A stretch of 64,000 nt of DNA from an uncultured Candidatus Saccharibacteria bacterium (GTDB lineage Bacteria > Patescibacteriota > Minisyncoccia > Phycocordibacterales > UBA9973), in NCBI GenBank assembly GCA_964532495.1, contig CAZHJZ010000002.1:1693-65692 (forward strand), given 5' to 3'. The notes beneath the pieces were generated by a model. The model was not told the origin of the DNA and ran no database searches. It was given only the letters and a program-made list of their open reading frames with translations. The translations under genes were made by a program, and so were the position numbers. Each line of letters opens with the position of its first letter. Within the stretch, counting starts at the first letter, position 1. Below are positions 2,106 to 50,004 of the stretch, piece by piece.

Positions 2106-2333
<228 letters not shown>

Positions 2334-2424
2334 CTAATTAATAATCTTTTTGACCAACTCCGTAAAACGGATGGGTTGCAGTGAGAACGCTGTTCTCCGC
2401 ACAACCCAGCCGTCTTATGAATTT

Positions 2425-3773: not shown

Positions 3774-4754
3774 CTAGTCTTCGTCCGCTTCGTCTCCAAC
3801 CACTCCAGAATTGAGCGCATCAATGATCTTTTGGATCTGCCCGTTTTGTATAGCTGGGATGTTTGACCATGATTGGCGAATGCGGTGGTCGGTCACGCGG
3901 TCTTGCGGAAAGTTATATGTGCGGATTTTTTCGCTTCGATCCCCTGTTCCAATCTGGTTTTTACGGTCAGCTGCATATTTCTTTGCTTCCTCCTCTTCTT
4001 TCAGCGCTTGGAGTTTTGCGGTAAGGATGCTCATAGCCTTTTCTCTGTTGCCGAGCTGGCTGCGCTCAGATGTCGATCGTACGTCGATACCAGTTGGTTT
4101 GTGGATCAATCGCACTGCTGTTTCAACTTTGTTGACGTTTTGTCCTCCAGCACCTCCTGAACGTGAATATTCCATCTCAAGATCGCCTGGATCAATGACA
4201 AAGTTAACCTTCTTTCTCATTGGAAGAACGGCAACTGAAGCAGTAGAAGTGTGAATGCGGCCATTTTTTTCAGTTCCAGGAACTCGCTGTACGCGATGGA
4301 CGCCAGTTTCGTAGCGGAGATCCTTATAAACATCTTTTCCTTTAATTTCAAGAGAGACTTCTTTGTAACCGCCCACATCGCTTTTTGCTTCTTCTGTAAT
4401 CTTTGAAGACCAGCCTCGGCCTTCTGCGTATCGCTGGTACATTTCTGCCAATTCCCATGCAAACAATGATGCCTCGTCGCCTCCTGCGCCAGCTCGTACT
4501 TCCATGATGATTTCATTCGGGAATTCCTCCTCTTCTTTCTCGCTTTCCTGGATTTGTTTTACCTGCGACTCGATAGCCTCGCGCTGAATTTTTAGAGATT
4601 CGATCTCTTCTTTGCCAAGTTCAAAAAGCGATTCGTCGTCGCCAATGGCTTCGCGAACTTTTTCTTCTTCGACTTCAAGACGCTCGTATTCGTCGACGAG
4701 GTAGCTCAATCTGTGGTTTTTGCGAAGTTCATCGCGGGTGGTTATATCTAGCAT
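3774..4754 (-). CDS. prfA: peptide chain release factor 1 (PxT-type, motif PGT; GGQ present)
   Basis: 326 aa; RVQRVPGTE...GRIHTS and [11 protein letters not shown] motifs; no SPF motif (not RF2). Confidence 0.85.
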
Positions 4755-4764
4755 ACGTTATTCC

Positions 4765-4846
4765 TACACTTAGTGGCTGCACGAGCCTGGTCGAGGAAGT
4801 ATGGAAGTACCACGCCGCTCGCGGCAACCTGCTTATCAGCAGGTTG
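4765..4846 (-). ncRNA. conserved structured RNA element, copy A (hairpin with GAUA loop engulfing the rpmE stop codon; ends in the prfA Shine-Dalgarno sequence)
   Basis: 82-nt element shared with 34509-34590 and 19939-20016; conserved blocks CCGCG...GCGUrrUAC...CGAyCArG...CGUGCAGCCAyWAAGUGUA; compensatory changes in two helices. Confidence 0.5.
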
Positions 4847-4847
4847 G

Positions 4848-5120
4848 CTATTTTGACTTCTTTTTTGAAGCAGTAGCTTCCTGGCGCTTCTTGAACTTGT
4901 CCACGCGTCCTGCAACGTCAAGGAGAACTTCAGTTCCAGTATAAAAAGGATGAGATACGCTTGAAATTTCAACACGGTACAAAGGATATTCTTTGCCGTC
5001 GTCTTTCGAGATGCCAGTTTCTTTTGTAGGTACAGTTGAGTAGATAAGAAATTGAGCTCCGGAAGTCATATCTTCAAATATAACCTGGCGATAGTCTTTT
5101 GGGTGGATGTCTTTTTTCAT
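4848..5120 (-). CDS. rpmE: 50S ribosomal protein L31 (non-zinc type B)
   Basis: 90 aa, [10 protein letters not shown]... typical L31 N-terminus, no CxxC. Confidence 0.9.
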
Positions 5121-6569: not shown

Positions 6570-6593
6570 AATAAGTCTCGCCTGAGGCGTGAA

Positions 6594-7232
6594 TTACTCC
6601 GCAGCTGGCTCCTCTTCGTCTTTCTTTCCTTTCTTTTCAACTTCGATTTTCGACAAATCGATCGGTGTAGCTGTATCTTCGACTTCTTCTACCTGTGCTG
6701 CAAGTGATGCAATAACCTCGTCCTGTCCTGCTGTTGCAGTGACTCCTGCTGGAAGTTTCAAGTCTGAAACAAGGATCTGGTCATGAAGCGCTACGAGTTT
6801 TGAGAGATCAACGGTTACTGAGTGAGGCATGTGTTTTGGAAGTCCTGAAACTTCGATTTCATGCATAACTTTAACCAAAGTACCAAGGTTTCCTTTTACT
6901 GCTGGTGACACACCGTCGAATTCGAGCGGGATAGCCACTTCGATTGGCTTGTTCATGTCGACTACGAGGAAGTCTACATGAAGAGGAGTTCCTCTCAACG
7001 GATCAAACTGGACTTCGTGGATCAAAACGTCTACTTTTTCGCTTCCTACTGTAAGAGTGACAGTTGAAGATTCGCCAGCTTCCTTGAAAGCCTTCTCGAA
7101 TTCCTTCTGTTTAATGCTAATTGGAGTTGTTTCTTTGCCTGCGCCGTAAAAAACTGCTGGAACCATGCCCCCTGTTCGGATTGCAGCGAGATTTTCTTTA
7201 GGATCGCGTGTTGTTGCTGTGATATTTGACAT
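6594..7232 (-). CDS. rplY: 50S ribosomal protein L25 / general stress protein Ctc
   Basis: Start moved to internal Met (MSNITATTRDPKENL...), 213 aa; the upstream part of the track ORF runs through GC-rich non-coding-looking sequence. Confidence 0.8.
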   Translation of the reverse strand: MSNITATTRDPKENLAAIRTGGMVPAVFYGAGKETTPISIKQKEFEKAFKEAGESSTVTLTVGSEKVDVLIHEVQFDPLRGTPLHVDFLVVDMNKPIEVAIPLEFDGVSPAVKGNLGTLVKVMHEIEVSGLPKHMPHSVTVDLSKLVALHDQILVSDLKLPAGVTATAGQDEVIASLAAQVEEVEDTATPIDLSKIEVEKKGKKDEEEPAAE

Positions 7233-7318: not shown

Positions 7319-7427
7319 GTGCGCGATGTCGCCTGCCCGTGGAAGGGGCTCGCGGACTGCAGGAGCGGGAGCAAAAATCTCTCAAGATTTTATGCGCACC
7401 CTTCTACGGGCAGGCGGCGAAGCGCAC
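7319..7427 (+). ncRNA. GC-rich structured RNA candidate (6 + 20 bp closing helix, two internal hairpins), identity unknown
   Basis: 5' GUGCGC-GAU-GUCGCCUGCCCGUGGAAGGG pairs with 3' CCCUUCUACGGGCAGGCGGC-GAA-GCGCAC; two G.U pairs on plus strand would be A.C mismatches on minus, so plus-strand transcript inferred; GC content far above flanking DNA. Confidence 0.4.
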
Positions 7428-14915: not shown

Positions 14916-15764
14916 CTAAGCAAACAAGTTTTTCCAATCGCTTGCGAATTTCTCGATACCTTTATCTGTAAGGTCGTGCTGTATATTATATGAATTCCAC
15001 TCCCCTTCATTCAGGTTTTTGTACGGGATCTTTTCTTTTGGCTGCGTAGGCGCTGGAATAGTTAGTTCCGGATTGGCGACCCATTCTTTATAAATTGAGA
15101 GCGGCGCTGTAATAATATCGATTCCTCCATCTACGCATTTTTTTACATGTTCAAGATTGCGAATACTTGCTCCTAATACTGAAACATGGCTGTTCCAATC
15201 TAGATACATTCGTTTAATATTTGTAACAAGATCTGAGCCTTCGAGTCCGATGTCGTCCAATCTGCCGATAAACGGTGAAACAAAAACTTGATCGCGGGCA
15301 GCTCCTTTTGTGGCAGCATGTACGGCTGCAGCTTGTTCTTGGGAGAAACAAAGTGTCATGTTTACTCTTATTCCCTCACTCGTAAGGATCTGAGCGGTTT
15401 TTAAGCCGGCTTCAGTCGTGGGCAGTTTTACATATACGCCAGGAAACCAACTAGCCAAAATCCTTCCTTGTGCAAGCATTGTTTCGTGGGTTGTGTCGCT
15501 ATCTGCAAAAACTTCAACTGAAATGGCACCATTGGGAATAACTTCTTTAATTGCCAAAGCTACTTCTTTATATTTGTCCCATATTACCGTTTGATCCAAA
15601 GCCTTCTGTTCTTTAAGTTCAAGAATATGCGGGTTTTTTGCCACAAGTGAGGGGTTAGTTGTCTGACCATCAAGGAATCCAAGTATAGCTAGTGCTTCCT
15701 CAGTCTCAGCTGGGTTGCCGCTATCTAGGAATAATCTGGTTTGTTTGTGTTCAACTGATTTCAT
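14916..15764 (-). CDS. tal: transaldolase / fructose-6-phosphate aldolase family protein (short type with C-terminal extension)
   Basis: 282 aa; LFLDSGN, TTNPSL, VKLP motifs of TalC/FsaA family. Confidence 0.8.
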   Translation of the reverse strand: MKSVEHKQTRLFLDSGNPAETEEALAILGFLDGQTTNPSLVAKNPHILELKEQKALDQTVIWDKYKEVALAIKEVIPNGAISVEVFADSDTTHETMLAQGRILASWFPGVYVKLPTTEAGLKTAQILTSEGIRVNMTLCFSQEQAAAVHAATKGAARDQVFVSPFIGRLDDIGLEGSDLVTNIKRMYLDWNSHVSVLGASIRNLEHVKKCVDGGIDIITAPLSIYKEWVANPELTIPAPTQPKEKIPYKNLNEGEWNSYNIQHDLTDKGIEKFASDWKNLFA

Positions 15765-17369: not shown

Positions 17370-18374
17370 TTAGTGTGCTCCTTTTCTGTTGAGTACCTTT
17401 ACGATTGCCTCCTCGATTTTTCTCTGTCCCATTCCATAGTGTTCGATCAGCTGTTCAGGCGTTCCTGATTGGCCAAACAGGTCGTGTACGCCGATGAATT
17501 CTATGGGCACTGGGAATTGCTGGGCGAGAACCTCAGCGACTGCGCTGCCCATTCCTCCTGCTATTTGGTGTTCTTCAACCGTGACTATTGCCTTTGTTTC
17601 TTTTGCGAGAGCGATGATTGCTTCCATATCGAGCGGCTTGATGGTAGCAAGATTCATGACTTTTGTTTTAATTCCCTTTTTTTCGAGTTCGCGAGCTGCC
17701 ATCAGAGCTTTGTGAACGAGCGCTCCGGTTGCGATGACTCCGACATGCGCGATGCCATGATCCGGCTCCCAAAAGATTTGCGCCTTGCCGATCTCAAACG
17801 GTGTTTCGCTCGTTGTCATGATCGGAGTTTTTTCTCGAGCAAGACGAAGATATGTTGGCAATTCATTCTGTGCGATGGCCTGTGTGGCCTTCTCTGCCTC
17901 GATACTGTCGCATGGAGAAACGACTGACATGTTTGGGAGGACTCGCATGAGCGCGATATCTTCGATTGCTTGGTGTGTTCCGCCGTCAGGTCCGACTGAG
18001 ATGCCCGCGTGAGAGCCTACAATGACCACCTTGCGGTCGTTATACGCAATTGTGGTGCGTATCTGCTCCCAGTTTCGTCCTGGCGAAAACATCGCGTATG
18101 AGGACGCAAATGGGATCTTGCCCATTGCTGCCATTCCAGATGCAACAGTGACAAGATTCTGTTCAGCAACGCCGATTTCGATGAATCGTTCCGGGAATCG
18201 TTCTTTAAAGACATGCATTTGAGTAGATTCGGTAAGATCTGCACAGAGTGCGACAATATTCGCATCTTTTTCTCCTGCGATCTTGAGGCCAGTTCCAAAT
18301 CCTTTGCGGATCGGTACTTGCTCGACGTCATCCATGAAAAGTTTCGGGTTAAGTTTTAGTTTTGGGTTAAGCAT
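17370..18374 (-). CDS. transketolase, C-terminal section (pyrimidine-binding + C-terminal domains)
   Basis: 334 aa; ...ASGMAAMG..., split-transketolase B subunit pattern. Confidence 0.85.
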   Translation of the reverse strand: MLNPKLKLNPKLFMDDVEQVPIRKGFGTGLKIAGEKDANIVALCADLTESTQMHVFKERFPERFIEIGVAEQNLVTVASGMAAMGKIPFASSYAMFSPGRNWEQIRTTIAYNDRKVVIVGSHAGISVGPDGGTHQAIEDIALMRVLPNMSVVSPCDSIEAEKATQAIAQNELPTYLRLAREKTPIMTTSETPFEIGKAQIFWEPDHGIAHVGVIATGALVHKALMAARELEKKGIKTKVMNLATIKPLDMEAIIALAKETKAIVTVEEHQIAGGMGSAVAEVLAQQFPVPIEFIGVHDLFGQSGTPEQLIEHYGMGQRKIEEAIVKVLNRKGAH

Positions 18375-18375
18375 A

Positions 18376-18795
18376 TTAGAAAGTAAGTAATTTTAATCCT
18401 GTTTGCTCATCTTTGACCCGTTCGATGTGCGTTTCAAAATCACTGACAAAAATTTCAAGCGTCATATCTGTCACCAATTTCATGACATGACCGCCGATAG
18501 TGCTGAAGTCCTTCTTTCCGAAGACTCCATGGATATGGAAAAACGGCGCGTCATTGAGCTCAGTGATGGTTCCTGAAATGGAAAGAACTTCAAGATTTTC
18601 TTCATACGTTTTTCGTTCGTATTCTGCCTGTTCGCTGTCAAAGTAGCCGAGCTCAACTTCTCGCGCCATGCCGATGCCTGAGATATGGCCGGATTGGATC
18701 TGGTGCTGGAGCGCAAAAATATCCAGGGCTTGATAGAGCTCTTCCCCTTGATCGAGACGTATGAGGAAACCTTTTGGAACGCGTTTAGTTGTCAT
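18376..18795 (-). CDS. PPC-domain (DUF296) protein
   Basis: 139 aa; DUF296/PCC-type fold pattern; inserted between transketolase halves. Confidence 0.5.
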   Translation of the reverse strand: MTTKRVPKGFLIRLDQGEELYQALDIFALQHQIQSGHISGIGMAREVELGYFDSEQAEYERKTYEENLEVLSISGTITELNDAPFFHIHGVFGKKDFSTIGGHVMKLVTDMTLEIFVSDFETHIERVKDEQTGLKLLTF

Positions 18796-18797
18796 GA

Positions 18798-19046
18798 TTA
18801 TTTACTCAAGTGCTTAGCAAGCTTATAAAAGACGAATGAAAGGATGATCGAACCAGCTAGTATTGCAAACGGAATGTAATTAGCATACGGAGCAGAAGCC
18901 ACCAGGGTCGGACAAACGTTGCTGCCCCATATGTTATTGCAGGCCGCAGGATTAAGAATATCTATAACTATGCGGAGAAACCACAATGCGGTTGCGATAA
19001 AAAAAAGTGAAAGAAAATATGAAATGAAAGAGAGAAGTTTTTTCAT
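18798..19046 (-). CDS. small membrane protein
   Basis: 82 aa, 2-3 predicted TM helices. Confidence 0.35.
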   Translation of the reverse strand: MKKLLSFISYFLSLFFIATALWFLRIVIDILNPAACNNIWGSNVCPTLVASAPYANYIPFAILAGSIILSFVFYKLAKHLSK

Positions 19047-19047
19047 G

Positions 19048-19917
19048 TTATCTATGCTCGCTTTTAATCTTACCTCCTAATGTGCGAAGCTCTTCGAGGG
19101 CCATCTTTGCTTCTTCTTTGTTTGGAGCTTTACCATGCCAGTGGAAATCATACTCGAATTCCTTTACTCCCTTGCCTGGGATAGTTCGAGCAATGATGAC
19201 CGACGGTTTATCGGTTACTGCTTTTGCTGTATTGATCGCAGTGTCTATCTGTCTGAAATCATGGCCATCTATTTCCTGCACATGCCATCCGAATGTTTTG
19301 TATTTTTCACCAAGATCGCCGAGCGGCATGATATCTTCGGTATATCCGTCGATTTGAATATTGTTGCGATCAATAATAGCGATGAGGTTATGAAGCTTTT
19401 CTTTACCGGCAAGAAGTACTGCCTCCCAGGTATTACCTTCGTCATGCTCGCCATCAGAAAGAAGTGCGTAAATAGTTTTGTGCGTTGTCATGCCGTTATC
19501 GATACGGTCAGCGAGTGCCATTCCGGTTGCCTGTGAAAGGCCTGAGCCGAGCGGGCCAGAACTTGTTTCAAGCATTGGTAGATACTCTCTATGCGGATGG
19601 CCTTGGAGGCGAGAACCGAATTTTCTAAGCGTTTGCAGTTCAGTCGTGCTGAAATAGCCTGCATGCGCCATGGTAGCGTATAGTACCGGACAAATATGAC
19701 CATTAGAAAGCACTACTCTGTCGCGATCTGCCCATGTTGGGTTCTTTGGATTATGTTTGAGCGAATGAAAATAGAGATGGGTGAAGATATCAGTCATGCC
19801 GAGCGGCCCGGCAGTATGTCCGGAACCCGCGGTAAGCAGCATAGAAATAATACTTTCGCGAATATCATTTGCCTTAATTGCGAGGTCGGAGATTTTGAGA
19901 TCGTCGAGTGGTTCCAT
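19048..19917 (-). CDS. transketolase, N-terminal section (TPP-binding)
   Basis: 289 aa; GSGHTAGPLGMTDIFTHLYF... N-terminal transketolase signature. Confidence 0.85.
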   Translation of the reverse strand: MEPLDDLKISDLAIKANDIRESIISMLLTAGSGHTAGPLGMTDIFTHLYFHSLKHNPKNPTWADRDRVVLSNGHICPVLYATMAHAGYFSTTELQTLRKFGSRLQGHPHREYLPMLETSSGPLGSGLSQATGMALADRIDNGMTTHKTIYALLSDGEHDEGNTWEAVLLAGKEKLHNLIAIIDRNNIQIDGYTEDIMPLGDLGEKYKTFGWHVQEIDGHDFRQIDTAINTAKAVTDKPSVIIARTIPGKGVKEFEYDFHWHGKAPNKEEAKMALEELRTLGGKIKSEHR

Positions 19918-19938
19918 ATACTTCCAAGTATATCATGA

Positions 19939-20016
19939 TTTACCGGTAGGTAAATTACCGCGCGCGGCGTAGTACATTAAAATTCAGCGACCAGGCGCGT
20001 GCAGCCACAAAGTGTA
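19939..20016 (+). ncRNA. conserved structured RNA element, copy C (plus strand, antisense to flanking tkt/rpe genes)
   Basis: UUUACC-GGUA-GGUAAA hairpin then CCGCGCGCGGCGUAGUAC...CGACCAGGCGCGUGCAGCCACAAAGUGUAGGA; same block order and pairing pattern as copies A/B. Confidence 0.5.
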
Positions 20017-20042
20017 GGAAAAAGTGGAGTAGAAATTACTAC

Positions 20043-20735
20043 TTATAAATCTGTTTTCAAGTTTTGAAAGTCTTCAACCGTGCTTTGAATATCTACTTCG
20101 TCAAAAAGTGCTGAACCAATGACAAGCCTGTTTGCCCCGGCCGCAAGAAGCGGGTGCGCTGTTGTTTTGTTCACTGCGCCGTCAACACTGATAATCATGT
20201 TTGGAGCAAGTGCGCGGACTTTGAGTATTTGCCCGATAACGCGTTCATCGAATGGCTGGCGCTGTTTGCCGATAGCCGCAATGCCCATGCATTGCACGAA
20301 TTTGATATGTGGAAGGAGTGGAATCAAAAGATCTGTATCAGTAGTTGTATTGATCGCTACGCCCATTTCGATGAAATCTTTGTAATACGGATCAACTGTT
20401 TCAAAAAAGCCGAGCAAGTTGTCTTCTGCTTCAAGATGAAAAACCAAACGGTTGGGGCCAATTTTAAGAAGTCGATCAAACTGCTCAGATGCGTTTTTTG
20501 CCATGAGGTCGAACTCGTAGTTCACCTGTTCCCAATATGGCAAGCCGGTTTCTTCGTTGACGATCTCGTTGTAGGCCATTACGTCTTTTCCGTTAAAAGG
20601 CCAGGATTTGGTAGCAACATAGACGCCATCGCAGAAATCTATCTGGATAGTTTTGACCAAGGTAAATACCATGGAAGACTTTGTACGTATTTCACCGACA
20701 TTCTGCGGCATGATTGCTGGAATAATTTCTATCAT
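20043..20735 (-). CDS. rpe: ribulose-phosphate 3-epimerase-like (divergent; first metal-ligand His not conserved)
   Basis: 230 aa; ...FHLEAE..., MGIAAIGKQRQPF (GFGGQ-like), ISVDGAVN, AGANRLVIGSALF blocks. Confidence 0.55.
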   Translation of the reverse strand: MIEIIPAIMPQNVGEIRTKSSMVFTLVKTIQIDFCDGVYVATKSWPFNGKDVMAYNEIVNEETGLPYWEQVNYEFDLMAKNASEQFDRLLKIGPNRLVFHLEAEDNLLGFFETVDPYYKDFIEMGVAINTTTDTDLLIPLLPHIKFVQCMGIAAIGKQRQPFDERVIGQILKVRALAPNMIISVDGAVNKTTAHPLLAAGANRLVIGSALFDEVDIQSTVEDFQNLKTDL

Positions 20736-20739
20736 AGTC

Positions 20740-21231
20740 TTATTGTTCTATTTTGGTAATTCGGCGAACGTGGCGTTCATCCCCTGAAAAAAGCGTATCA
20801 ATAAATACTTTAACTGCCTGCTGTGCATGGCTTTCGAGAATAAAATGAGCACCGAGCGAAAGAATATTCGCATTGTTATGGAATCGCGCTAGCTTTACTA
20901 TCTCATATGGATCTTTACTGGAAGTTCCACCGACATCCACTGCTTCATATGGAATCATTTCGCCATAAAAGACAGCAGCTCGAACGCCGCGAACTTTATT
21001 TGCTACAATCGCCTCGCCTTGTCCGCTTCCTCCAAAGATGATTCCCAAGCTTCCTTGATCGGCGGCAACTGCTTCTGCTGCTGGACGTATAAAATCTGGA
21101 TAGTCGTCTTCTGGTGTGAATTCCAGTGCGCCCATATCGACAATTTCAAGATCCATCATCGAACTCAAATAAGCCTTAATTTTTTCTTTAAGTTTGAATC
21201 CGGCATGATCTGTGGCGAGGTAGATTTTCAT
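20740..21231 (-). CDS. rpiB: ribose-5-phosphate isomerase B
   Basis: 163 aa; MKIYLATDHAGFKLKE... RpiB/LacAB family. Confidence 0.85.
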   Translation of the reverse strand: MKIYLATDHAGFKLKEKIKAYLSSMMDLEIVDMGALEFTPEDDYPDFIRPAAEAVAADQGSLGIIFGGSGQGEAIVANKVRGVRAAVFYGEMIPYEAVDVGGTSSKDPYEIVKLARFHNNANILSLGAHFILESHAQQAVKVFIDTLFSGDERHVRRITKIEQ

Positions 21232-21232
21232 G

Positions 21233-21305
21233 TTTATTTTATAGACTGCCCTGTTTTGATCACATGATCAACGAGGGTGTGCGTATACCTTACTTCGTTA
21301 TTGTA
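21233..21305 (-). pseudogene. relic C-terminal fragment of a second glyceraldehyde-3-phosphate dehydrogenase copy
   Basis: In-frame WYNNEVRYTHTLVDHVIKTGQSIK* ; ~75-80% nt identity to gap 3' end at 21572-21650 (WYDNEMGYTHTLVEHVIKTGNTIN*). Confidence 0.5.
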
Positions 21306-21565
21306 CCATCTCGAGGAGTTTCTGTGATTTGCCCACTTTCTAATTCATCTTTCGCGGTATCTATCGCTTCTAGAAAATCTTCTAATGGAATTTTCCGTGT
21401 CACTTGATTTTCGTCAAGATTAATCCCTGGAAATTCTAACTCAAAAACATCTGGTGCTTCGTGAGTCAACATAACACCGAATTTTCCTTCAAAAGAAATT
21501 TCAGCGACAAGCTTTTCTTTATCTGGATCACTAACAAAGATTATGTTGAAGTTTTGTTTTTCCAT
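21290..21565 (-). CDS. hypothetical small acidic protein
   Basis: 91 aa ORF flanked by the gap 3' end and its relic duplicate; no recognisable domain. Confidence 0.3.
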   Translation of the reverse strand: MEKQNFNIIFVSDPDKEKLVAEISFEGKFGVMLTHEAPDVFELEFPGINLDENQVTRKIPLEDFLEAIDTAKDELESGQITETPRDGTITK

Positions 21566-21567
21566 AA

Positions 21568-22602
21568 CTAGTTAATAGTATTGCCTGTCTTGATTACATG
21601 CTCAACCAAAGTGTGCGTATACCCCATCTCGTTGTCGTACCATGCCAACACTTTGACCAAGTTTCCGCCAACAACGCGAGTCATTGCGAGGTCTGCGATA
21701 GATGCATGTGTTTCGCCAAGGATGTCAGATGATACAAGCGGCTCTTCTGTGACTGCGAAAATTTCCTTCCATCGGTCGCTTTTCGCAGCGTCTTTTAGGA
21801 TTTGGTTTACTTCTTCCGCTGTTACTGTTTTCTTTGAGATAAACGTAACATCAACAATTGAACCTGCTGGAACTGGCACGCGAAGTGAAATACCGTCAAA
21901 GAGTCCTTTGAGATCGGTAAATGCTTCTGTCACAGCGATAGCTGCACCAGTTGAAGATGGAACGATATTTTGAGCCGCTGCACGGCCTTCTCGGAGGTCT
22001 TTCTTTGCAGGACCATCCACGAGTGCTTGAGATGCTGTATAGCCGTGTGTAGTTGATAGCAATGCTTTCTCAATACCAACGGTGTCATGCAAGATTGCAA
22101 TAAGCGGTGATGCAGCGTTAGTTGTACATGAAGCGTTAGAAGTGATCGCACATGTGCCGAATTTGTTTTCGTTTACGCCAACGAGAATTGTCTCGCCTTT
22201 GATGCCTTCGTCTTCTACGTCATGAGCTGGCGCAGTGATAACAACTTTCTTTGCTCCCTGAGTGATATGAAATTCAGACTTGTCATACGCTGCAAAAAGT
22301 CCTGTAGATTCAACAACAACGTCAACTTCCAGTTCTTTCCATGGAAGTTTTGTTGTATCTTTTTCTGAAATAAATTTGATGGGCTTTCCGTCAACAATAA
22401 GGCCGTGCTCATCGCGAGAAACTGCATGGTTCCATTTTCGGTATACAGTATCGTATTGGAGCAGGTATGCGAGTGATTCCAAGGTTCCAAGGTCATTCAC
22501 TGCGACAATTTCCACTTCTGGGCGTTCCCAAGCTAATTTAAAAAACGCGCGGCCGATGCGGCCAAAGCCATTGATGGCTACTTTGATTTTGGTCTGTGTC
22601 AT
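21568..22602 (-). CDS. gap: glyceraldehyde-3-phosphate dehydrogenase
   Basis: 344 aa; KVAINGFGRIGR NAD-binding motif, ASCTTN active-site block. Confidence 0.9.
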   Translation of the reverse strand: MTQTKIKVAINGFGRIGRAFFKLAWERPEVEIVAVNDLGTLESLAYLLQYDTVYRKWNHAVSRDEHGLIVDGKPIKFISEKDTTKLPWKELEVDVVVESTGLFAAYDKSEFHITQGAKKVVITAPAHDVEDEGIKGETILVGVNENKFGTCAITSNASCTTNAASPLIAILHDTVGIEKALLSTTHGYTASQALVDGPAKKDLREGRAAAQNIVPSSTGAAIAVTEAFTDLKGLFDGISLRVPVPAGSIVDVTFISKKTVTAEEVNQILKDAAKSDRWKEIFAVTEEPLVSSDILGETHASIADLAMTRVVGGNLVKVLAWYDNEMGYTHTLVEHVIKTGNTIN

Positions 22603-31941: not shown

Positions 31942-32988
31942 ATGCAAACAGCTCTCATCGCCCTCATATCTATTGTCGTTGGTCTTGCCATTGGCGCTTT
32001 TTTCTTAAGACGGAAAGAAGAAAAAAAGACTGACGATACGGCCATGCAGTTGCTTCTCCAGCAAATCAATGAACTCTCAAGAACGGTAGATAGCAAGCTC
32101 GGTGAATCAAGCAAGCAAGTCAATGAGTCCCTTCGGTACCAATCAACCGAATCCAACAAGCTTATCCGCGAGATAACTGAAGAACTTACCCGTGTTTCTG
32201 AAGGCCAGAAACAAGTTATGTCATTTACCGATCAACTGCAAGATCTCCAAGATATATTGAAAAACCCAAAACAGCGAGGCATCTTGGGCGAATACTACCT
32301 TGAAACACTTCTCAAGAACGTCTTGCCTCCGGGCAGTTACCAAATGCAGTACGGATTTCCAAACGGAGATATTGTTGATGCTGCGGTTTTTGTAAAAGAT
32401 AAAGTAATACCGATTGATTCTAAGTTCTCTCTTGAGAACTACAATCGCATCAGCGAAACCAGAGATCCTGCAGAAAAAGAGCGTTTTGAAAAGATATTCT
32501 TGAACGATCTTAAAAATCGCATAGTTGAAACTTCAAAATATATCTTGCCGGAAAATGGCACTATGGATTTCGCGTTCATGTTTATCCCGCATGAAGCAAT
32601 TTATTATGATCTGATTATCAACAAAATAGGTGCTGTCACTGAAGATACTGAAAACCTCATCCAGCGTGCGGCAAGCAAGTATAAAGTCATCATTGTTTCG
32701 CCTACTTCGTTTTTGGCGTATCTCCAGACTGTTCTCCAGGGGTTGAGAGCAATGCAGATTGAGGAATCAGCAAAGGACATCATTAAACGTGTTGGTGAAC
32801 TTGGTGTGCATCTTCAGCGATATGAAGACTATCATAGCAAGCTTGGCAATGCCCTCTCGACAACCGTCAACCAATTCAATCTTTCAAGCAAAGAACTCAA
32901 GAAAGTAGACAAGGACGTGCTTCGTATTGCTGGCGTATCGCCAGACTTGAAACTCATCGAAGTCGTAAAGCCTGAGCTCGGAGAATAA
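31942..32988 (+). CDS. rmuC: DNA recombination protein RmuC
   Basis: 348 aa; N-terminal TM, coiled coil, C-terminal RmuC nuclease-like domain. Confidence 0.8.
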   Translation: MQTALIALISIVVGLAIGAFFLRRKEEKKTDDTAMQLLLQQINELSRTVDSKLGESSKQVNESLRYQSTESNKLIREITEELTRVSEGQKQVMSFTDQLQDLQDILKNPKQRGILGEYYLETLLKNVLPPGSYQMQYGFPNGDIVDAAVFVKDKVIPIDSKFSLENYNRISETRDPAEKERFEKIFLNDLKNRIVETSKYILPENGTMDFAFMFIPHEAIYYDLIINKIGAVTEDTENLIQRAASKYKVIIVSPTSFLAYLQTVLQGLRAMQIEESAKDIIKRVGELGVHLQRYEDYHSKLGNALSTTVNQFNLSSKELKKVDKDVLRIAGVSPDLKLIEVVKPELGE

Positions 32989-33639: not shown

Positions 33640-34416
33640 CTATTTAAGAAATTCTGGCTTTACTATTCCCTCCAATTCGCTAAATGGAATCGATACTTCT
33701 ATGATTCCCGCGGCGTATGAGGCAATAGCGTATTGCTGAAAGATAATGACAAGATTGCTTCCATTAAACGCGAATGTCGTAAAGTTTCCTGCGTCAGGTC
33801 CAGCGCTCTCAGCTAGCCATTCGGTGTTGATAGCTTCCTTATAATCTGGAAGTGCGAGGGCGTGCTGCTGTACCAATTCAGAAAATCGCTTAATCGCTGC
33901 TTCATCTACAAAGAGATCGGTGGCTACGATAGATTTTCCAGTAAAATCATACGTATATGTTTTTACAACCGTACCCCCGTGCGCTCCTCCTGAGTACGTG
34001 TATGTGTCTAACCGATGCGTCAAAAATGATGCGTTTCCATATGCTTTGTATTGGGTAATAAAGCTGTACTGACGATCTTTGGTGGGGCCGAATTCTTCCA
34101 ATTGTGTGGGAGTAAGCTTTGCTGGATCATTCTCTGCTTTGAACTGTGCTAGCTCCGCGTAGATACGGCCCTTGATATAGTCAGCTCCAAAGATATCTAC
34201 GGGATATTCTCCATGGATTTCAAACCCAGGACTGGAAGTATCTTTGAATGTTTCTTTTTTTATTGAGGAAATCGTAAATCCAGTTGGTTCTTGTATCTGA
34301 GCTTCTTCCTCAAGAACGGGATTGCGTACTATTACTTTTTCACGTATATACAACGCAACTCCTGCGATTACTATAAGTGCGAGAAATAATATGACCTTTG
34401 AGTAGTGTTTATTCAT
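33640..34416 (-). CDS. membrane-anchored DUF4163/DUF3298-domain protein (RsiV-like extracytoplasmic domain)
   Basis: 258 aa; N-terminal TM; YSGGAHG hallmark of DUF3298. Confidence 0.6.
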   Translation of the reverse strand: MNKHYSKVILFLALIVIAGVALYIREKVIVRNPVLEEEAQIQEPTGFTISSIKKETFKDTSSPGFEIHGEYPVDIFGADYIKGRIYAELAQFKAENDPAKLTPTQLEEFGPTKDRQYSFITQYKAYGNASFLTHRLDTYTYSGGAHGGTVVKTYTYDFTGKSIVATDLFVDEAAIKRFSELVQQHALALPDYKEAINTEWLAESAGPDAGNFTTFAFNGSNLVIIFQQYAIASYAAGIIEVSIPFSELEGIVKPEFLK

Positions 34417-34508
34417 AGTGAAAGTATACTCTCAATACAAACACCCCGCAAATAGTTTGCGGGGTGTTTGTATTGAGGCTTGGATCAGGAAATGAATCCT
34501 GTCCTACT

Positions 34509-34590
34509 TACACTTAATGGCTGCACGCCCTTGATCGCTAAAGTTTAAAAGTATCACGCGGGGCGCGGTAACTAGCCTACCGGCTAGTTA
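34509..34590 (-). ncRNA. conserved structured RNA element, copy B (hairpin with GGUA loop contains the dnaK TAG stop; followed by a 15-bp terminator-like hairpin before the next gene)
   Basis: UAACUAGCC-GGUA-GGCUAGUUA then CCGCGCCCCGCGUGAUAC...CGAUCAAGGGCGUGCAGCCAUUAAGUGUA; block order and pairing identical to copy A. Confidence 0.5.
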
Positions 34591-36467
34591 GTCTCAGCAT
34601 CCCGAATCTTTTCATCCTTCACCTCAGCATTCTGAGGTTCAGCTGTAGTACCAGCTTCTGCCTGGCCAGCCTTGTTCATTGCTTCGCCAATCTTTGACAT
34701 AGCAGCTGAAAGTTCCTGACTCGCTTTGGTAATAGCTTCGAGATCTGCGCCATCTTTTACTCCTTTGAGAGCGGTAATTTTAGCATTCACTTCGTCTTTC
34801 ACTTCAGCTGGAATCTTTGCTTCGTATTCCTTAAGTTCTTTTTCAGCTGAGAAGATCATCATTTCCGCAGTGTTCTTTGTTTCTGCGCCTTCTTTCTTTT
34901 TCTTGTCTTCTTCTGCGTGAAGTTCAGCATCTTTCTGCATTTTTTCGATTTCTTCTTTTGAAAGGCCAGATGAAGCTTCGATGCGGATAGTCTGAGTTTT
35001 TCCTGAAGACTTTTCCATTGCCTTCACATTCAAGATACCGTTAGCGTCCACATCAAAGGTAACTTCAACCTGAGGCATGCCTCGTGGTGCTGGTGGCACT
35101 CCATCGAGGATAAATCGTCCGAGAGACTTGTTGTCAGCGGCCATTGGTCGTTCACCCTGAACGATATGGATTTCAACCGAAGTCTGGTTATCAGCAGCGG
35201 TTGAGAATACCTGTGACTTTGAGGTTGGGATGGTAGTGTTTTTTTCGATGAGTTTTGTTCCAACGCCACCAAGTGTTTCAATACCGAGCGAAAGCGGAAT
35301 AACATCAAGCAAGAGCACATCGCGAACATCTCCCTTGAGAACTCCACCCTGAACTGCTGCTCCGAGAGCAACTACTTCATCTGGATTAACTGTGAGGTTT
35401 GGTTCCTTTCCGAAGAATGCTTTTACCGCAGCCTGCATTGCTGGCATACGAGTCTGTCCTCCAACGAGGATGACTTCATTGATTTCGCCAACTTTGAATG
35501 GTGATGCCTCGATAGCGCGTTTAGTGATCATCATTGCGCGGTCGATGAATTCCTGAGTCAATGTTTCGAGATCTGTTCGTGACATTGTTCGAACGAGGTG
35601 CAATGGTCCTGCTTCGCCAGATGTGATGAATGGAATGTTTACTTCTGTCTGAACTGCAGTTGAGAGTTCGATCTTTGCCTTTTCAGCAGCATCGTCGAGA
35701 CGCTGTCGAGCAAGCGCATCCTTGCGGAGGTCGATGCCGTTTTCCTTTTGGAATCCGTCTGCGAGCCAGTTGATGATTTTTTGGTCGATGTCTTTACCTC
35801 CCAAGTGTGAGTCACCATCAGATGACTTCACTTCAATAACATCATCTCCAACTTCGAGAACTGAAACGTCGAATGTTCCTCCTCCGAAGTCGAATACTGC
35901 AATCTTTTCGTTTTTGTTCTTGTTAAATCCGTATGCAAGCGCTGCAGCTGTCGGCTCGTTGATGATACGCATGACATCAAGTCCTGCGATCTTACCTGCG
36001 TCTTTTGTTGCCTGTCGCTGTGCGTCGTTGAAGTATGCTGGAACTGTAATAACGGCTTCAGTGATCGTCTCACCGATGCGAGATTCAGCATCTGCTTTCA
36101 TCTTCTGGAGAATCATCGCTGAGATTTCTTCAGGACGCTTCCATTCTTCTCCGAACTTTACTTCAATTCCGCCGTTTGCAGATTTGCGAACGTCGAATGG
36201 AACTGACTTGATGTCGCTCTGAACATCAGCTTCGTCGAAGTTGTGTCCGATGAAACGCTTGATCTGATAGATAGTGTTCTTTGGGTTTGTAACGCTCTGG
36301 CGTTTTGCAACCACACCAACCAATCGCTCGCCAGTTTTTGAAAGGGCGAGAATGGAAGGAGTCGTGCGCATGCCTTCAGCGTTTTCCAATATTTTCGGCT
36401 GACCACCTTCGATGATAGCAAAGGCCGAGTTTGTTGTACCGAGGTCAATACCAAGTATTTTACTCAT
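34584..36467 (-). CDS. dnaK: molecular chaperone DnaK (Hsp70)
   Basis: 627 aa; [27 protein letters not shown] signatures. Confidence 0.95.
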
Positions 36468-48246: not shown

Positions 48247-50004
48247 TTACTGAAGTACTGCCTTGATTCGTCGCACTCCTTGCGAGACAGCTTCTTCTTT
48301 TTGAATTTTAAAGCTGCCAAGTTCTCCTGTGTTAGAAACGTGCGGGCCGCCGCAGAATTCTTTCGAGAAATGAGAGCCATCTTTTTCTTGAATGAAATAG
48401 ACAGAAACTACATCAGGATACTTCGCTCCGAATTCCATTTCAGCGCCAAGTGCTTGAGCTTCTGAAAGCGGCATTTCTTTGCGCACAACATCAAGTTTTT
48501 CAGCTATTTTTTCATTGACTATTCTTTCTACTTCGGCTTTTTCTTCATCAGTCATCTTGCGGTCAAAAATAAAGTCCATGCGGAGGCGTTCTTCAGTGAT
48601 ATTTGAACCTCGTTGCTTGACTGAGGAGCCTAAGACCTGCTGTAAGGCAGCAAGCAGTAAATGATGCGCGGTATGCAGCTTCACTGTCTCTGGATTAGTA
48701 TTCGCAAGGCCTCCTTTGAATGTACCGGCACTTGAAGTTCGAGATTGATCCTGGTGTTCTTTGAGTTTTTGATCAAAAGCCTCACGGTCAATCACCGTGC
48801 CTCGTTCGCGAGCAAGTTCTTCGGTAAGTTCAATGGGGAATCCATACGTCGTAAAAAGAATGAACGGATCAGTTCCCTTTTCAAATTGGCGCAAACCATC
48901 CTTGAGCATTCCACGAAACTTCCTCTCTTCATCAAGTATTACGGCTACTGTTTCGCTTTCTTGTGCGGCAAGCTCAGGATATGCCCCTTTGTATTTGTTT
49001 ATAGTCATGGAGACCAAGCTTGCAAGCGCTTCTTCTGGCAATCCCAGCATATCTGCAAAACGAATAGCGCGTCTGAGCAATCGTCGGACGATATACCCAC
49101 GGTCTTTGTTTGAAGGATGCACGCCGTCTGTTATCAAGAAAACACTCGTGCGCACGTGGTCTGAGATTACACGAGCTGCTTTAAGATCTTCAGTTTTCTG
49201 ATTGCTTTTGATGTATTCCATTACATCAGCAAAAAGATCGGTGTCGTAAATATTGCTTTTGCCCTGCACGACAGTCGTTACGCGTTCAAGTCCAGCACCA
49301 GTATCCACATTGCGTGCTGGAAGCTCTCCTGCTACTTGGCCATTTTCTTGGCGGTACATCATGAAGACGTCGTTCCATATCTCCACAACCTGTTGGGCAT
49401 CTTCAGCTAGTTCAAATTCTTCCTGGCTCATGTCGCCAAGGGTACCAGTGAGATCATAGAACATTTCAGTTGAGGGTCCTGCTGGTGAATTTGGACCTGC
49501 GCTCCACCAATTTGATTTTGAGTTTTTGAAATATATGCGATGCTCTGGCATGCCGAGCTTTTTCCAAATTTCAACTGATTCAAGATCGCGCTCGACAGCA
49601 TCACTGCCGCCAAAAACAGTCACATAGAGGCGTGCTGGATCAAGCCCCAATCCTTCTTCTTTTGAAGTAAGGAACATCCAGCTCCACTCAATCGCATCTT
49701 GTTTAAAATAATCCCCAAGCGACCAGTTTCCGAGCATTTCAAAAAAAGTAAGGTGAGTTGCGTCTCCCACTTCATCTAGGTCTACTGTTCGTACGCATTT
49801 TTGTGAATCTGCGAGGCGAGTGCCGTCTGGGTGCTTTTCGCCCATAAGATACGGCATAAGCGGCTGCATTCCGGCAATATTAAAAAGTGTGGCGTTTGCG
49901 CCATTTCCAGTATCTTGAGTAACCAATGAGGCTGAAGGGATAACAACGTGCCCTCTGTTCTTGAAAAAGGTTAAAAATCGGCTCCGAATTTCGTGTGATT
50001 GCAT
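48247..50004 (-). CDS. alaS: alanine--tRNA ligase, short form lacking C-terminal DHHA1/oligomerisation domain
   Basis: 585 aa; catalytic core and editing-domain HxxxH (HTAHHLL) and ...GGPHV... motifs. Confidence 0.9.
   Translation of the reverse strand: MQSHEIRSRFLTFFKNRGHVVIPSASLVTQDTGNGANATLFNIAGMQPLMPYLMGEKHPDGTRLADSQKCVRTVDLDEVGDATHLTFFEMLGNWSLGDYFKQDAIEWSWMFLTSKEEGLGLDPARLYVTVFGGSDAVERDLESVEIWKKLGMPEHRIYFKNSKSNWWSAGPNSPAGPSTEMFYDLTGTLGDMSQEEFELAEDAQQVVEIWNDVFMMYRQENGQVAGELPARNVDTGAGLERVTTVVQGKSNIYDTDLFADVMEYIKSNQKTEDLKAARVISDHVRTSVFLITDGVHPSNKDRGYIVRRLLRRAIRFADMLGLPEEALASLVSMTINKYKGAYPELAAQESETVAVILDEERKFRGMLKDGLRQFEKGTDPFILFTTYGFPIELTEELARERGTVIDREAFDQKLKEHQDQSRTSSAGTFKGGLANTNPETVKLHTAHHLLLAALQQVLGSSVKQRGSNITEERLRMDFIFDRKMTDEEKAEVERIVNEKIAEKLDVVRKEMPLSEAQALGAEMEFGAKYPDVVSVYFIQEKDGSHFSKEFCGGPHVSNTGELGSFKIQKEEAVSQGVRRIKAVLQ

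What the first reader, a model, noticed from the sequence alone, without database searches (positions are those of the whole stretch)
19918..20042. Copy C of the RNA element is antisense to the flanking tkt and rpe genes
Here the same element is on the plus strand, in the 125-nt gap between two minus-strand genes (transketolase N-terminal section and rpe-like), with no plus-strand ORF downstream. It could mark an independent sRNA gene, an antisense regulator of rpe, or a processing or insulator site. Its orientation independence from neighbouring genes argues against a simple 3'-UTR terminator role.
Basis: seen in the sequence. Interest (0 to 1): 0.5.

Follow-up and report, generated by a model that had tools for sequence, protein, structure and literature searches.

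The report
Inverted copy of new structured repeat
The 125-base gap between rpe and the transketolase gene holds a complete, inverted copy of a previously undescribed ~110-base repeat that folds on one strand and is scattered through the gene gaps of a few related Patescibacteria genomes; it is a real new family, but what it does is still unknown.

Summary
Window 19936-20042 (+) is a full copy of an element that also occurs at 4755-4845 (-) and about 34485-34591 (-). It lies between rpe (20043-20735, -) and the transketolase N-half gene (19048-19917, -).

I found 19 intact copies, from the window, its own sample, two related Patescibacteria MAGs and one metagenome. Nothing matches in Rfam, phages or plasmids.

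One strand folds into a hairpin (P1) and a 7-bp helix (P2), followed by a conserved unpaired block. Over 17 aligned copies, 96% of cells are paired, 8 pairs change on both sides, and no shuffle reached this. An invariant G.U pair marks the folding strand.

Orientation relative to genes is random family-wide: 7 sense and 4 antisense in tandem gaps. Occupancy differs between close relatives; the rpe-tkt gap holds this element only in the window's lineage. One site, rodA-folD, is shared by three genomes with compensated P2 changes, and no decayed copies were found.

Best reading (about 0.4): a REP/ERIC-like dispersed structured insertion element, kept intact after insertion, and not dedicated to rpe or tkt.

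Rivals are an independent small RNA (a plus-strand TTGAGA-N16-TATACT site points into copy C), a cis-acting RNA or ribozyme, and a promoter cassette. This is a new family of a known general kind.

The parts
19936..20042 (+). Copy C of the element, full length (P1, P2 domain, conserved block, tail)
   Evidence: Covariance model hit 19923-20050 at 115.8 bits; nhmmer E 2e-30; boundaries taken from filled versus empty site comparisons.
19936..19957 (+). P1 hairpin: 9 bp including G19937.U19956, loop GGTA at 19945-19948
   Evidence: Six of the 7 modelled P1 pairs change on both sides across 17 copies. The sequence was read.
19959..20001 (+). P2 domain: 19959-19965 pairs with 19995-20001 (includes the invariant G19960.U20000); inner pairs 19969-19970 with 19990-19991; loop of about 20-30 nt, poor in G
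   Evidence: 100% of cells paired. Five complementary variants at the two variable pairs (CG/CG, CC/GG, AC/GU, AG/CU, CA/UG).
19999..20020 (+). Conserved block GTGCAGCCACAAAGTGTAGGAA; its first 3 nt are the end of P2, the remainder has no supported pairing
   Evidence: Invariant or nearly invariant in 17 copies. No partner was found in a column-pair scan.
20021..20042 (+). Tail (AAAGTGGAGTAGAAATTACTAC), corresponding to the family consensus AACTGRAATAAnnACT; it abuts the rpe stop codon at 20043-20045
   Evidence: Alignment. The consensus resembles an extended -10 box, but copy C is degenerate here.
19927..19954 (-). tkt promoter: extended -10 TGATATACT (19935-19927) and -35-like TTTACC (19954-19949), the latter inside P1 of the element
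   Evidence: Promoter scan. The same TGnTATACT box sits 6-9 nt before the ATG of tkt in relatives and of other window genes.
19895..19922 (+). Plus-strand promoter-like site TTGAGA-N16-TATACT pointing into copy C; the predicted start is about 19929, roughly 7 nt before P1
   Evidence: Promoter scan, 10 of 12 matches. It is not conserved in the other divergently placed copies.
4755..4845 (-). Copy A, between the rpmE stop codon (4848-4850) and the release-factor ATG (4754); tail replaced by the gene start
   Evidence: 109.2 bits.
34485..34591 (-). Copy B (approximate 3' end). P1 contains the dnaK stop codon (34584-34586). A canonical terminator follows at 34431-34477.
   Evidence: (110.6 bits).
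19048..19917 (-). Transketolase N-terminal half gene (context)
   Evidence: Pfam PF00456, E 4.5e-64.
20043..20735 (-). Ribulose-phosphate 3-epimerase gene (context)
   Evidence: Pfam PF00834, E 1.1e-18.

Best explanation
Copy C is a complete, inverted member of a previously undescribed family of dispersed intergenic elements about 110 nt long. One strand of the element, the plus strand at this locus, folds into a hairpin (P1) and a 7-bp helix (P2) that closes a loop poor in G. About 45 nt of conserved sequence with no supported pairing follows.

The family behaves like a small non-autonomous insertion element of the REP/ERIC type. It sits only between a stop codon or terminator and the next promoter, in either orientation. 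It occupies different gaps in closely related genomes, and it stays intact once in place.

In the window's lineage one copy landed between the rpe stop codon and the tkt promoter. It is not a terminator for rpe and not a device specific to rpe or tkt. Its P1 arm now supplies a -35-like hexamer to the tkt promoter.

Shown here: the family, the fold, the folding strand, the random orientation, the presence/absence differences between relatives, and the intactness of all copies.

Inferred only: that spread and maintenance depend on a trans-acting factor that recognises the folded strand (as single-stranded DNA or as RNA), and that any effect on neighbouring genes is incidental.
For: Family size: 19 intact copies (103-122 bits) and nothing weaker down to E=1 in 267 kb plus 65 kb of the window and relatives.

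Fold: 96.3% of cells paired, 8 pairs with changes on both sides, 0 of 500 shuffles as high, and slid controls at 28-37%.

Strand: an invariant G.U in P2, further G.U pairs in P1, no real A.C pairs, and loops GRUA or GAAA.

Orientation: 7 sense and 4 antisense in tandem gaps. Copies lie before canonical terminators (window copy B, L101) or directly after them (L008, L059, L102, L115a).

Occupancy differs between relatives.
- SLT-rpmE gap: filled in L002, empty in the window.
- rpmE-RF gap: filled in the window, but a terminator plus promoter in L002.
- rpe-tkt gap: filled only in the window; L124 is empty (15 nt), L121 and L120 hold another repeat, L123 holds an ORF.
- uppP-secD gap: filled only in L011.

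Other points. Assemblies break inside the element. There is no association with any gene class. The published description of REP, MITE and ERIC elements fits in outline: intergenic, either orientation, occupancy varying between strains, structured when single-stranded (PMC2817692, PMC10969869).
Against: No terminal inverted repeats, no target-site duplication and no conserved target sequence were seen.

No transposase was seen next to any copy, although whole genomes could not be scanned.

Copies are saturated in divergence. Mean identity is 74% both within and between genomes, and the maximum is 85%, so there is no sign of a recent burst.

The rodA-folD copy is shared by three genomes and carries three different compensated P2 variants. 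Together with the absence of any decayed copy, this points to selection acting on each copy in place. That is more than a purely selfish element would need.

About 45 invariant unpaired positions are unusual for REP or MITE elements.
Confidence: 0.4

Rival explanations
1. Independent small RNA gene family. Each copy is transcribed on its folding strand, by read-through and processing from the upstream gene or from a nearby promoter, and the stable ~110-nt RNA acts in trans through its conserved single-stranded block. Copy C would be made from the plus-strand promoter at 19895-19922, and its transcript would run antisense into the 3' end of rpe.
For: Strand-specific fold features are kept equally well in antisense copies: G.U pairs are retained and scores are 111-121 bits. 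All copies are intact and none are relics. Compensated changes occur among orthologous copies. A TTGAGA-N16-TATACT site (10 of 12 matches) points into copy C. The other divergently placed copies have TAnnnT hexamers within 35 nt upstream.
Against: No promoter motif travels with the element. Only 2 of 6 divergently placed copies pass a promoter criterion. Four copies start 0-3 nt after a strong terminator with no room for a promoter. No terminator follows the tail. An estimated 20-45 near-redundant genes per roughly 1-Mb genome (my extrapolation from the densities seen) would be unusual for a bacterial small RNA.
Confidence: 0.2
2. Cis-acting RNA module within transcripts. It could be a self-cleaving or RNase-targeted processing site, a 3'-end protecting structure, or a switch: the CGCG of P2 can pair either with the distal CGUG (forming P2) or with the proximal GCGUG, which is followed by a U-rich stretch. 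On this reading, inverted copies such as C would be inactive by-products of insertion.
For: Conserved unpaired nucleotides framed by variable, covarying helices are the usual look of ribozymes and aptamers. Several copies start at, or include, the stop codon of the upstream gene: dnaK, rodA, secY and the gene upstream of the L094 copy. One copy ends right at the 5' end of a tRNA. All three antisense copies that could be compared with relatives are lineage-specific, whereas the one widely shared site is in sense.
Against: No match to any Rfam family, including all self-cleaving ribozyme classes, at E up to 10. Antisense copies are as intact as sense copies. The position relative to terminators is inconsistent. 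The alternative hairpin has no covariation support and its U run is not conserved.
Confidence: 0.12
3. Portable promoter or insulator cassette acting as DNA. The tail (consensus TGRAATAAT) would be an extended -10 box that starts transcription about 7 nt downstream, and the folded part would terminate or insulate upstream transcription. At copy C it would fire antisense into rpe.
For: The tail differs by one base from a true local promoter (TGATATAAT before folD in L011) and resembles the local consensus TGnTATACT. It sits at a fixed short distance from the 5' end of a tRNA (L094) and of the Y repeat in three genomes. In the window the element replaces the terminator plus promoter found before the release-factor gene in L002. 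MITEs carrying sigma-70-like promoters are known, for example Correia (PMC10969869).
Against: In either reading register, a key -10 position deviates in most copies (A at -12, or G at -11). Copy C's own tail is degenerate. Two copies would fire straight into a terminator (window copy B, L101), and several downstream genes have their own promoter after the element. RNA-type covariation of P1 and P2 is not explained by a double-stranded DNA function.
Confidence: 0.08

Closest known systems
REP/BIME elements and their RAYT transposases (PMC2817692)
   Same: Extragenic, many copies, both orientations, a strand-specific stem-loop when single-stranded, and persistence in the genome. The motif GTAG/GTGG occurs in the conserved block (GTGTAGG).
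   Different: REPs are 20-40 nt, with a GT(A/G)G head directly 5' of one GC-rich imperfect palindrome, and are often in inverted doublets. This element is about 110 nt, has two different helices and a long unpaired conserved block, its GTAG lies about 15 nt 3' of P2, and no doublets were seen. The RAYTs of that paper were found only in gammaproteobacteria.
ERIC, Correia and other bacterial MITEs (PMC10969869)
   Same: A 100-200 nt intergenic repeat in either orientation, with occupancy that differs between strains and species. Some affect neighbours through promoters or RNase sites. ERIC sequence conservation is likewise poorly explained.
   Different: MITEs are defined by terminal inverted repeats and target-site duplications and fold as one long imperfect palindrome. 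Here there are no terminal inverted repeats, no target-site duplication and an asymmetric fold. Copies are old and saturated in divergence rather than near-identical.
Orphan structured RNA motifs and small self-cleaving ribozymes of Rfam (twister, hammerhead, pistol, hatchet and others)
   Same: Short, with variable covarying helices framing invariant unpaired nucleotides, several copies per genome, and no fixed gene association.
   Different: No Rfam model matches at E up to 10. No cleavage site or known ribozyme topology could be mapped onto it.
Non-autonomous IS200/IS605 derivatives (palindrome-associated elements)
   Same: No terminal inverted repeats or target-site duplication, subterminal hairpins recognised on one DNA strand, and G.T pairs tolerated (from my own knowledge of the family).
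   Different: No pair of related left-end and right-end hairpins, no conserved target tetranucleotide at the 5' boundary, and no TnpA or TnpB gene seen nearby. Orientation does not follow the direction of most genes.

Membership tests
Any Rfam 15 family | Match to the family's covariance model | tested here: not met
   Gathering-threshold scans of the window and of 13 related loci gave only tRNAs. An E-value scan of 19850-20100 up to E=10 gave two chance hits, CRISPR-DR11 at 14.9 bits and Y_RNA at 12.2 bits.
REP elements | A 20-40 nt unit made of a GT(A/G)G head immediately followed by one GC-rich imperfect palindrome (PMC2817692) | tested here: not met
   The element is about 110 nt with two unlike helices. 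GTAG lies about 15 nt 3' of P2 and is not followed by a palindrome.
REP elements | A cognate RAYT gene flanked by REPs in the same genome | not testable with these tools
   Whole genomes of the source organisms could not be scanned. No transposase lies next to any of the 19 copies.
MITE (including ERIC and Correia) | Terminal inverted repeats | tested here: not met
   The 5' end (P1) and the 3' tail are not complementary. The repeat search and the alignment show none.
MITE (including ERIC and Correia) | Target-site duplication flanking the insertion | tested here: not met
   Filled and empty sites were compared at SLT-rpmE, rpmE-RF, rpe-tkt and rodA-folD, and no direct repeat flanks the element. 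The compared genomes differ by 10-20%, so a 2-3 nt duplication could have been missed.
MITE (including ERIC and Correia) | Presence/absence differences between related genomes at the same site | tested here: met
   Five gene gaps differ in occupancy among relatives.
Intrinsic (Rho-independent) terminator | GC-rich hairpin directly followed by a U run | tested here: not met
   P1 is followed by ACCGCG. Canonical terminators occur separately, before or after the element. On the gene-sense strand at copy C, the scan found only a weak 7-pair stem with 3 G-C pairs.
Stand-alone bacterial small RNA gene | Own promoter at a fixed distance, and own terminator | tested here: inconclusive
   Copy C has TTGAGA-N16-TATACT 14 nt upstream of P1, but only 2 of 6 divergently placed copies and essentially none of the co-oriented copies have a promoter-like site, and none has a terminator. 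Expression data are not available.
Cis-regulatory leader or riboswitch (including T-box, because of the GUGGUAC and CCGCG motifs) | Constant sense position upstream of a functionally coherent gene set | tested here: not met
   The downstream features in sense are unrelated: release factor, DUF3298 gene, trmD, folD, adk, tsaE, a tRNA and another repeat. Six copies point at nothing or at the 3' end of a convergent gene. There is no T-box hit in Rfam.
IS200/IS605-type non-autonomous element | Related subterminal hairpins at both ends, and a conserved target or cleavage tetranucleotide at the boundary | tested here: not met
   P1 and P2 are unrelated to each other, and the 5' flanks of 17 copies share no motif.

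The most novel reading that the evidence does not exclude
The element is a new class of functional RNA, either a self-cleaving or self-processing ribozyme or a multi-copy RNA component of an RNP. It would be specific to a small lineage of Patescibacteria, spread by insertion, and kept under purifying selection at every locus. This would explain the roughly 45 invariant unpaired positions, the compensated helices among orthologues, and the complete absence of decayed copies.
Probability: 0.15. Interest if true: 0.8.

Novelty: new variant of a known kind. Interest (0 to 1): 0.5.

Why it matters
Patescibacteria (CPR) genomes are small and tightly packed, and in the literature I could search no dispersed repeat or multi-copy structured RNA is described for them. 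An element of about 110 nt is kept intact at an estimated 20-45 sites in a roughly 1-Mb genome (my extrapolation from the densities seen). It has covarying helices and a long invariant single-stranded block. So it is either a mobile element with an unusual, structure-dependent way of spreading, or an RNA with a function worth that much DNA.

For annotation, the practical lessons are these.
- These gaps are not terminators or leaders of the adjacent genes.
- The element breaks short-read assemblies.
- The element can replace or supply parts of promoters. Here it provides the -35-like hexamer of tkt, and at copy A it stands where relatives have the terminator and promoter before the release-factor gene.

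Tried and rejected
- **Rfam.** Gathering and E-value scans gave nothing.
- **Viral contigs, phage records and plasmid records.** Only chance matches or none.
- **Extra helices or pseudoknots between the P2 loop and the 3' block.** I tried UUCC/GGAA, UACUU/AAGUG and GUGG/CCAC. None has more than 3 consecutive supported pairs or real compensation.
- **T-box resemblance (GUGGUAC and CCGCG).** The motif order is wrong, the gene contexts are wrong, and Rfam gives no hit.
- **HDV-like topology with the G.U at a cleavage site.** The strand order does not fit.
- **Shine-Dalgarno plus a three-codon mini-ORF in the tail** (CUG-AAA-UAA, or GUG-GAG-UAG in copy C). AGGA is present in only about 10 of 17 copies and the start position is often not a start codon.
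- **Tail as an extended -10 box.** Suggestive, but it deviates at a key position in most copies.
- **Gene conversion as the cause of conservation.** Rejected, because identity within genomes equals identity between genomes.
- **Orientation following the direction of replication.** Rejected. Copies A and B are co-oriented with the minus-strand genes around them and copy C is opposite, and C lies between A and B.
- **The structure 3' of the element in L016, L058 and L115 as RNase P, SRP, 6S or tmRNA.** There is no Rfam hit, and it turned out to be a second repeat family.
- **Literature searches** for CPR repeats or RNA motifs found nothing relevant.
- **Extending the window's genome through exact-protein look-ups** gave little. 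One look-up failed and two returned short contigs.

Full report
**Observation.** The gap 19918-20042 lies between two minus-strand genes. ORF 19048-19917 is the N-terminal half of a split transketolase (PF00456, E 4.5e-64). ORF 20043-20735 is ribulose-phosphate 3-epimerase (PF00834, E 1.1e-18).

The gap sequence is repeated twice elsewhere in the window, both times on the minus strand. One copy is at 4738-4827 (76.7% identity over 90 nt, E 1e-13). The other is at 34509-34583 (78.7% over 75 nt, E 2e-12). The 18-mer GTGCAGCCANNAAGTGTA occurs exactly three times, whereas shuffles gave a mean of 0.47 matches even with up to 3 mismatches allowed.

**Gene context of the window copies.**
- Copy A (4755-4845, -) lies between rpmE and a release-factor gene.
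- Copy B (about 34485-34591, -) lies between dnaK and a DUF3298 gene.
- Copy C (19936-20042, +) is inverted relative to both of its neighbours.

**Family.** Only loci from two MAGs are real matches: 'Candidatus Paceibacterota bacterium CTOTU14203' (DALYCO01, 8 copies) and 'uncultured Candidatus Saccharibacteria bacterium SRP170004_co1_265' (CAYVDC01, 4 copies). The metagenome scan gave two contigs with three copies, one of which duplicates a DALYCO locus. Viral contigs, phage records and plasmid records gave nothing real.

A further copy lies in a contig from the same sample as the window's genome (L128). With a covariance model, all 19 copies score 103-122 bits. Nothing else reaches E=1 in 267 kb plus 65 kb of the window and related loci. 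So copies are either intact or absent, and there are no decayed relics.

No Rfam family matches. Literature searches found no description of such an element in Patescibacteria.

**Anatomy** (coordinates are those of copy C).
- P1, 19936-19957, is a 7-9 bp hairpin with a conserved top, GCC-GRTA-GGC.
- P2 pairs 19959-19965 with 19995-20001. It has 7 bp, the second of which is an invariant G.U, plus two inner pairs. It closes a loop of 20-30 nt that is poor in G.
- The block GTGCAGCCAYWAAGTGTAGGAA (19999-20020) is invariant or nearly so. Its first three bases are the 3' end of P2, and no pairing partner was found for the remainder.
- The tail has the consensus AACTGRAATAAnnACT and runs to 20042.

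On 17 aligned copies, 96.3% of cells form standard pairs and 8 of 16 pairs change on both sides. No shuffle out of 500 reached these values, and sliding the partner columns drops pairing to 28-37%. The two variable P2 pairs occur as CG/CG, CC/GG, AC/GU, AG/CU and CA/UG.

The fold is strand-specific. G.U pairs occur, no genuine A.C pairs do, and the P1 loop is GRUA, or GAAA in one copy. One copy (L128) has the loop flipped to UACC. I found no supported helix beyond P1 and P2.

**Context across the family**.
- Copies lie only in intergenic DNA, tightly packed between a stop codon or terminator and the next promoter.
- In tandem gene gaps, 7 copies are sense and 4 are antisense: window C, L002, L011b and L058. 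This ratio is what random orientation would give.
- Copies lie upstream of a canonical terminator (window copy B, terminator at 34431-34477; also L101) or 0-3 nt after one (L008, L059, L102, L115a).
- The genes on either side are unrelated housekeeping genes: rpmE, prf, dnaK, secY, adk, trmD, folD, rodA, uppP, secD, priA, rpsU, rpsT, ruvA, tyrS, tsaE and recR.
- One copy ends exactly at the 5' end of a tRNA (L094).

These facts rule out a leader or riboswitch role, and they rule out a simple terminator role.

**Turnover and persistence.** Closely related genomes differ in which gaps are filled.
- SLT-rpmE gap: empty in the window (45 nt, holding only the rpmE promoter TTGCAA-N16-TATAGT), but it carries an antisense copy in DALYCO.
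- rpmE-RF gap: it is copy A in the window, but a terminator plus TATAGT promoter in DALYCO.
- rpe-tkt gap: it holds the element only in the window's lineage. Relatives with 84-91% identical transketolase have 15 nt (L124), a different repeat (L121 and L120) or a 111-aa ORF (L123).
- uppP-secD gap: filled only in DALYCO.
- rodA-folD gap: filled in three genomes (L128, L036, L011) and empty (1-10 nt) in three further relatives.

The three orthologous rodA-folD copies carry three different compensated P2 variants: CG/CG, AC/GU and CC/GG.

Pairwise identity among all copies is 63-85%. The mean is 74% both within and between genomes. So there has been no recent burst and no homogenisation by gene conversion. 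The unconstrained positions are saturated while the core is invariant.

**What this means for copy C.** On the gene-sense (minus) strand the order is:
1. rpe stop codon (20043-20045);
2. the reverse complement of the element;
3. the tkt extended -10 box TGATATACT (19935-19927);
4. a 9-nt leader;
5. the tkt ATG (19917).

The same TGnTATACT box, 6-9 nt before the ATG, is found at tkt in all relatives and at most operon-first genes of the window. mRNAs here therefore seem to be leaderless or nearly so. The element was thus inserted precisely between the end of one transcription unit and the promoter of the next.

The promoter scan places the -35-like hexamer of the tkt promoter (TTTACC, 19954-19949) inside P1. 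It also finds a good plus-strand site, TTGAGA-N16-TATACT (19895-19922, 10 of 12 matches), that would start transcription about 7 nt before P1. That site is built from tkt coding sequence and leader. It is not conserved in other copies, and only 2 of the 6 divergently placed copies pass the same criterion. No terminator follows the tail.

**Interpretation.** The data pull two ways. Random orientation, the lack of any gene association, the variable position relative to terminators, the differences in occupancy, and the way the element breaks assemblies all match small dispersed insertion elements such as REP, ERIC and other MITEs (PMC2817692, PMC10969869).

Against that, there are no terminal inverted repeats or target-site duplications, no nearby transposase, saturated divergence, compensated changes among orthologues, and no relics. 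These indicate that each copy is kept intact in place on one specific strand, even where that strand is antisense to the neighbours.

I therefore rank the readings as follows.
1. A REP/ERIC-like structured insertion element, maintained by a factor that recognises the folded strand (0.4).
2. An independent small RNA family (0.2).
3. A cis-acting RNA module, meaning a processing site, ribozyme or switch, with inverted copies as inactive by-products (0.12).
4. A portable promoter or insulator cassette based on the tail's resemblance to an extended -10 box (0.08).

The remainder is left for something not considered. None of these can be settled without expression data.

The element is a real structured element on the plus strand, and orientation independence is a property of the whole family. 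A dedicated antisense or regulatory role at rpe or tkt is not supported by comparison with relatives. An independent transcript is plausible but unproven.

**Novelty.** This is a new family, absent from Rfam and from the literature I could search. It belongs to a known general kind, the dispersed structured intergenic repeats, but has atypical features.

Noticed in passing
L016 4452-4770; L121 9862-9976; L120 1-200; L058 about 6590-6700 (-); L115 about 2225-2350 (-): A second repeat family, which I call Y. In L016 it is about 320 nt and folds into three near-perfect long hairpins closed by GGGAGAGCGC/GCGCTCTCCC (-172 kcal/mol, z -14.8). Shorter versions of about 100 nt occur elsewhere. In three genomes it lies directly 3' of the element studied here. 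In two relatives it occupies the rpe-tkt gap instead of that element. It has no Rfam match.
   Followed up: partly
window, upstream of operon-first genes, e.g. 14916-15764, 31942-32988, 33640-34416, 48247-50004, 4848-5120: Promoters look like an extended -10 box, TGnTATACT (or TATAGT), ending 6-9 nt before the ATG, with no Shine-Dalgarno sequence. Operon-first mRNAs therefore appear to be leaderless or nearly so. Genes inside operons do have AGGA-type sites.
   Followed up: partly
window 7319-7427: A long imperfect hairpin with 29-nt arms that are 83% complementary (fold z -5.5). It lies between the L25 gene and the FAD-oxidase gene. It is unique among the sequences held here. The same gap is 46 nt in relative L124.
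   Followed up: partly
window 17370-19917: The transketolase gene is split, and its two halves are separated by two other genes. The order is the N half (19048-19917), an 82-aa ORF with no Pfam match (18798-19046), a PCC-domain gene (18376-18795), and the C half (17370-18374). The N half, the PCC-domain gene and the C half keep the same order in relatives L120, L121, L123 and L124, with one or two other small ORFs between the N half and the PCC gene (MazG-like in L123).
   Followed up: no
L128 8684-8812; L036 1346-1472; L011 3622-3750; empty sites in L129, L130 and L131: In the rodA-folD gap, the last codon and the stop codon of rodA (TAC TAG) form the 5' arm of P1. Genomes without the element end rodA with TAC TAA. 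The stop codons of dnaK (window copy B) and of the gene upstream of the L094 copy also lie inside P1. The L128 copy has its P1 loop flipped (UACC instead of GRUA).
   Followed up: partly
L127 1-98 (Logan contig SRR12404947_34505): A short-read contig carrying the identical transketolase gene starts inside copy C. This shows that the repeat breaks assemblies.
   Followed up: no
window 21225-21309 and 21559-21643: An 85-nt direct repeat (74% identity) spans the 3' ends of two ORFs, 21290-21565 and the GAPDH gene 21568-22602, and the starts of the genes that follow them. It looks like a partial duplication of the 3' end of the GAPDH gene.
   Followed up: no
all copies, alignment columns 54-66 and 94-97 (copy C: 19959-19971 and 19998-20001): The invariant CGCG of P2 can pair with either of two identical CGUG motifs. 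Pairing with the distal one gives P2, which is supported by covariation. Pairing with the proximal GCGUG gives a 4-5 bp hairpin followed by GUACUUUU in many copies. The terminator scan picked up this hairpin at copy B (34555-34567). It may be an alternative fold, but no covariation supports it.
   Followed up: partly
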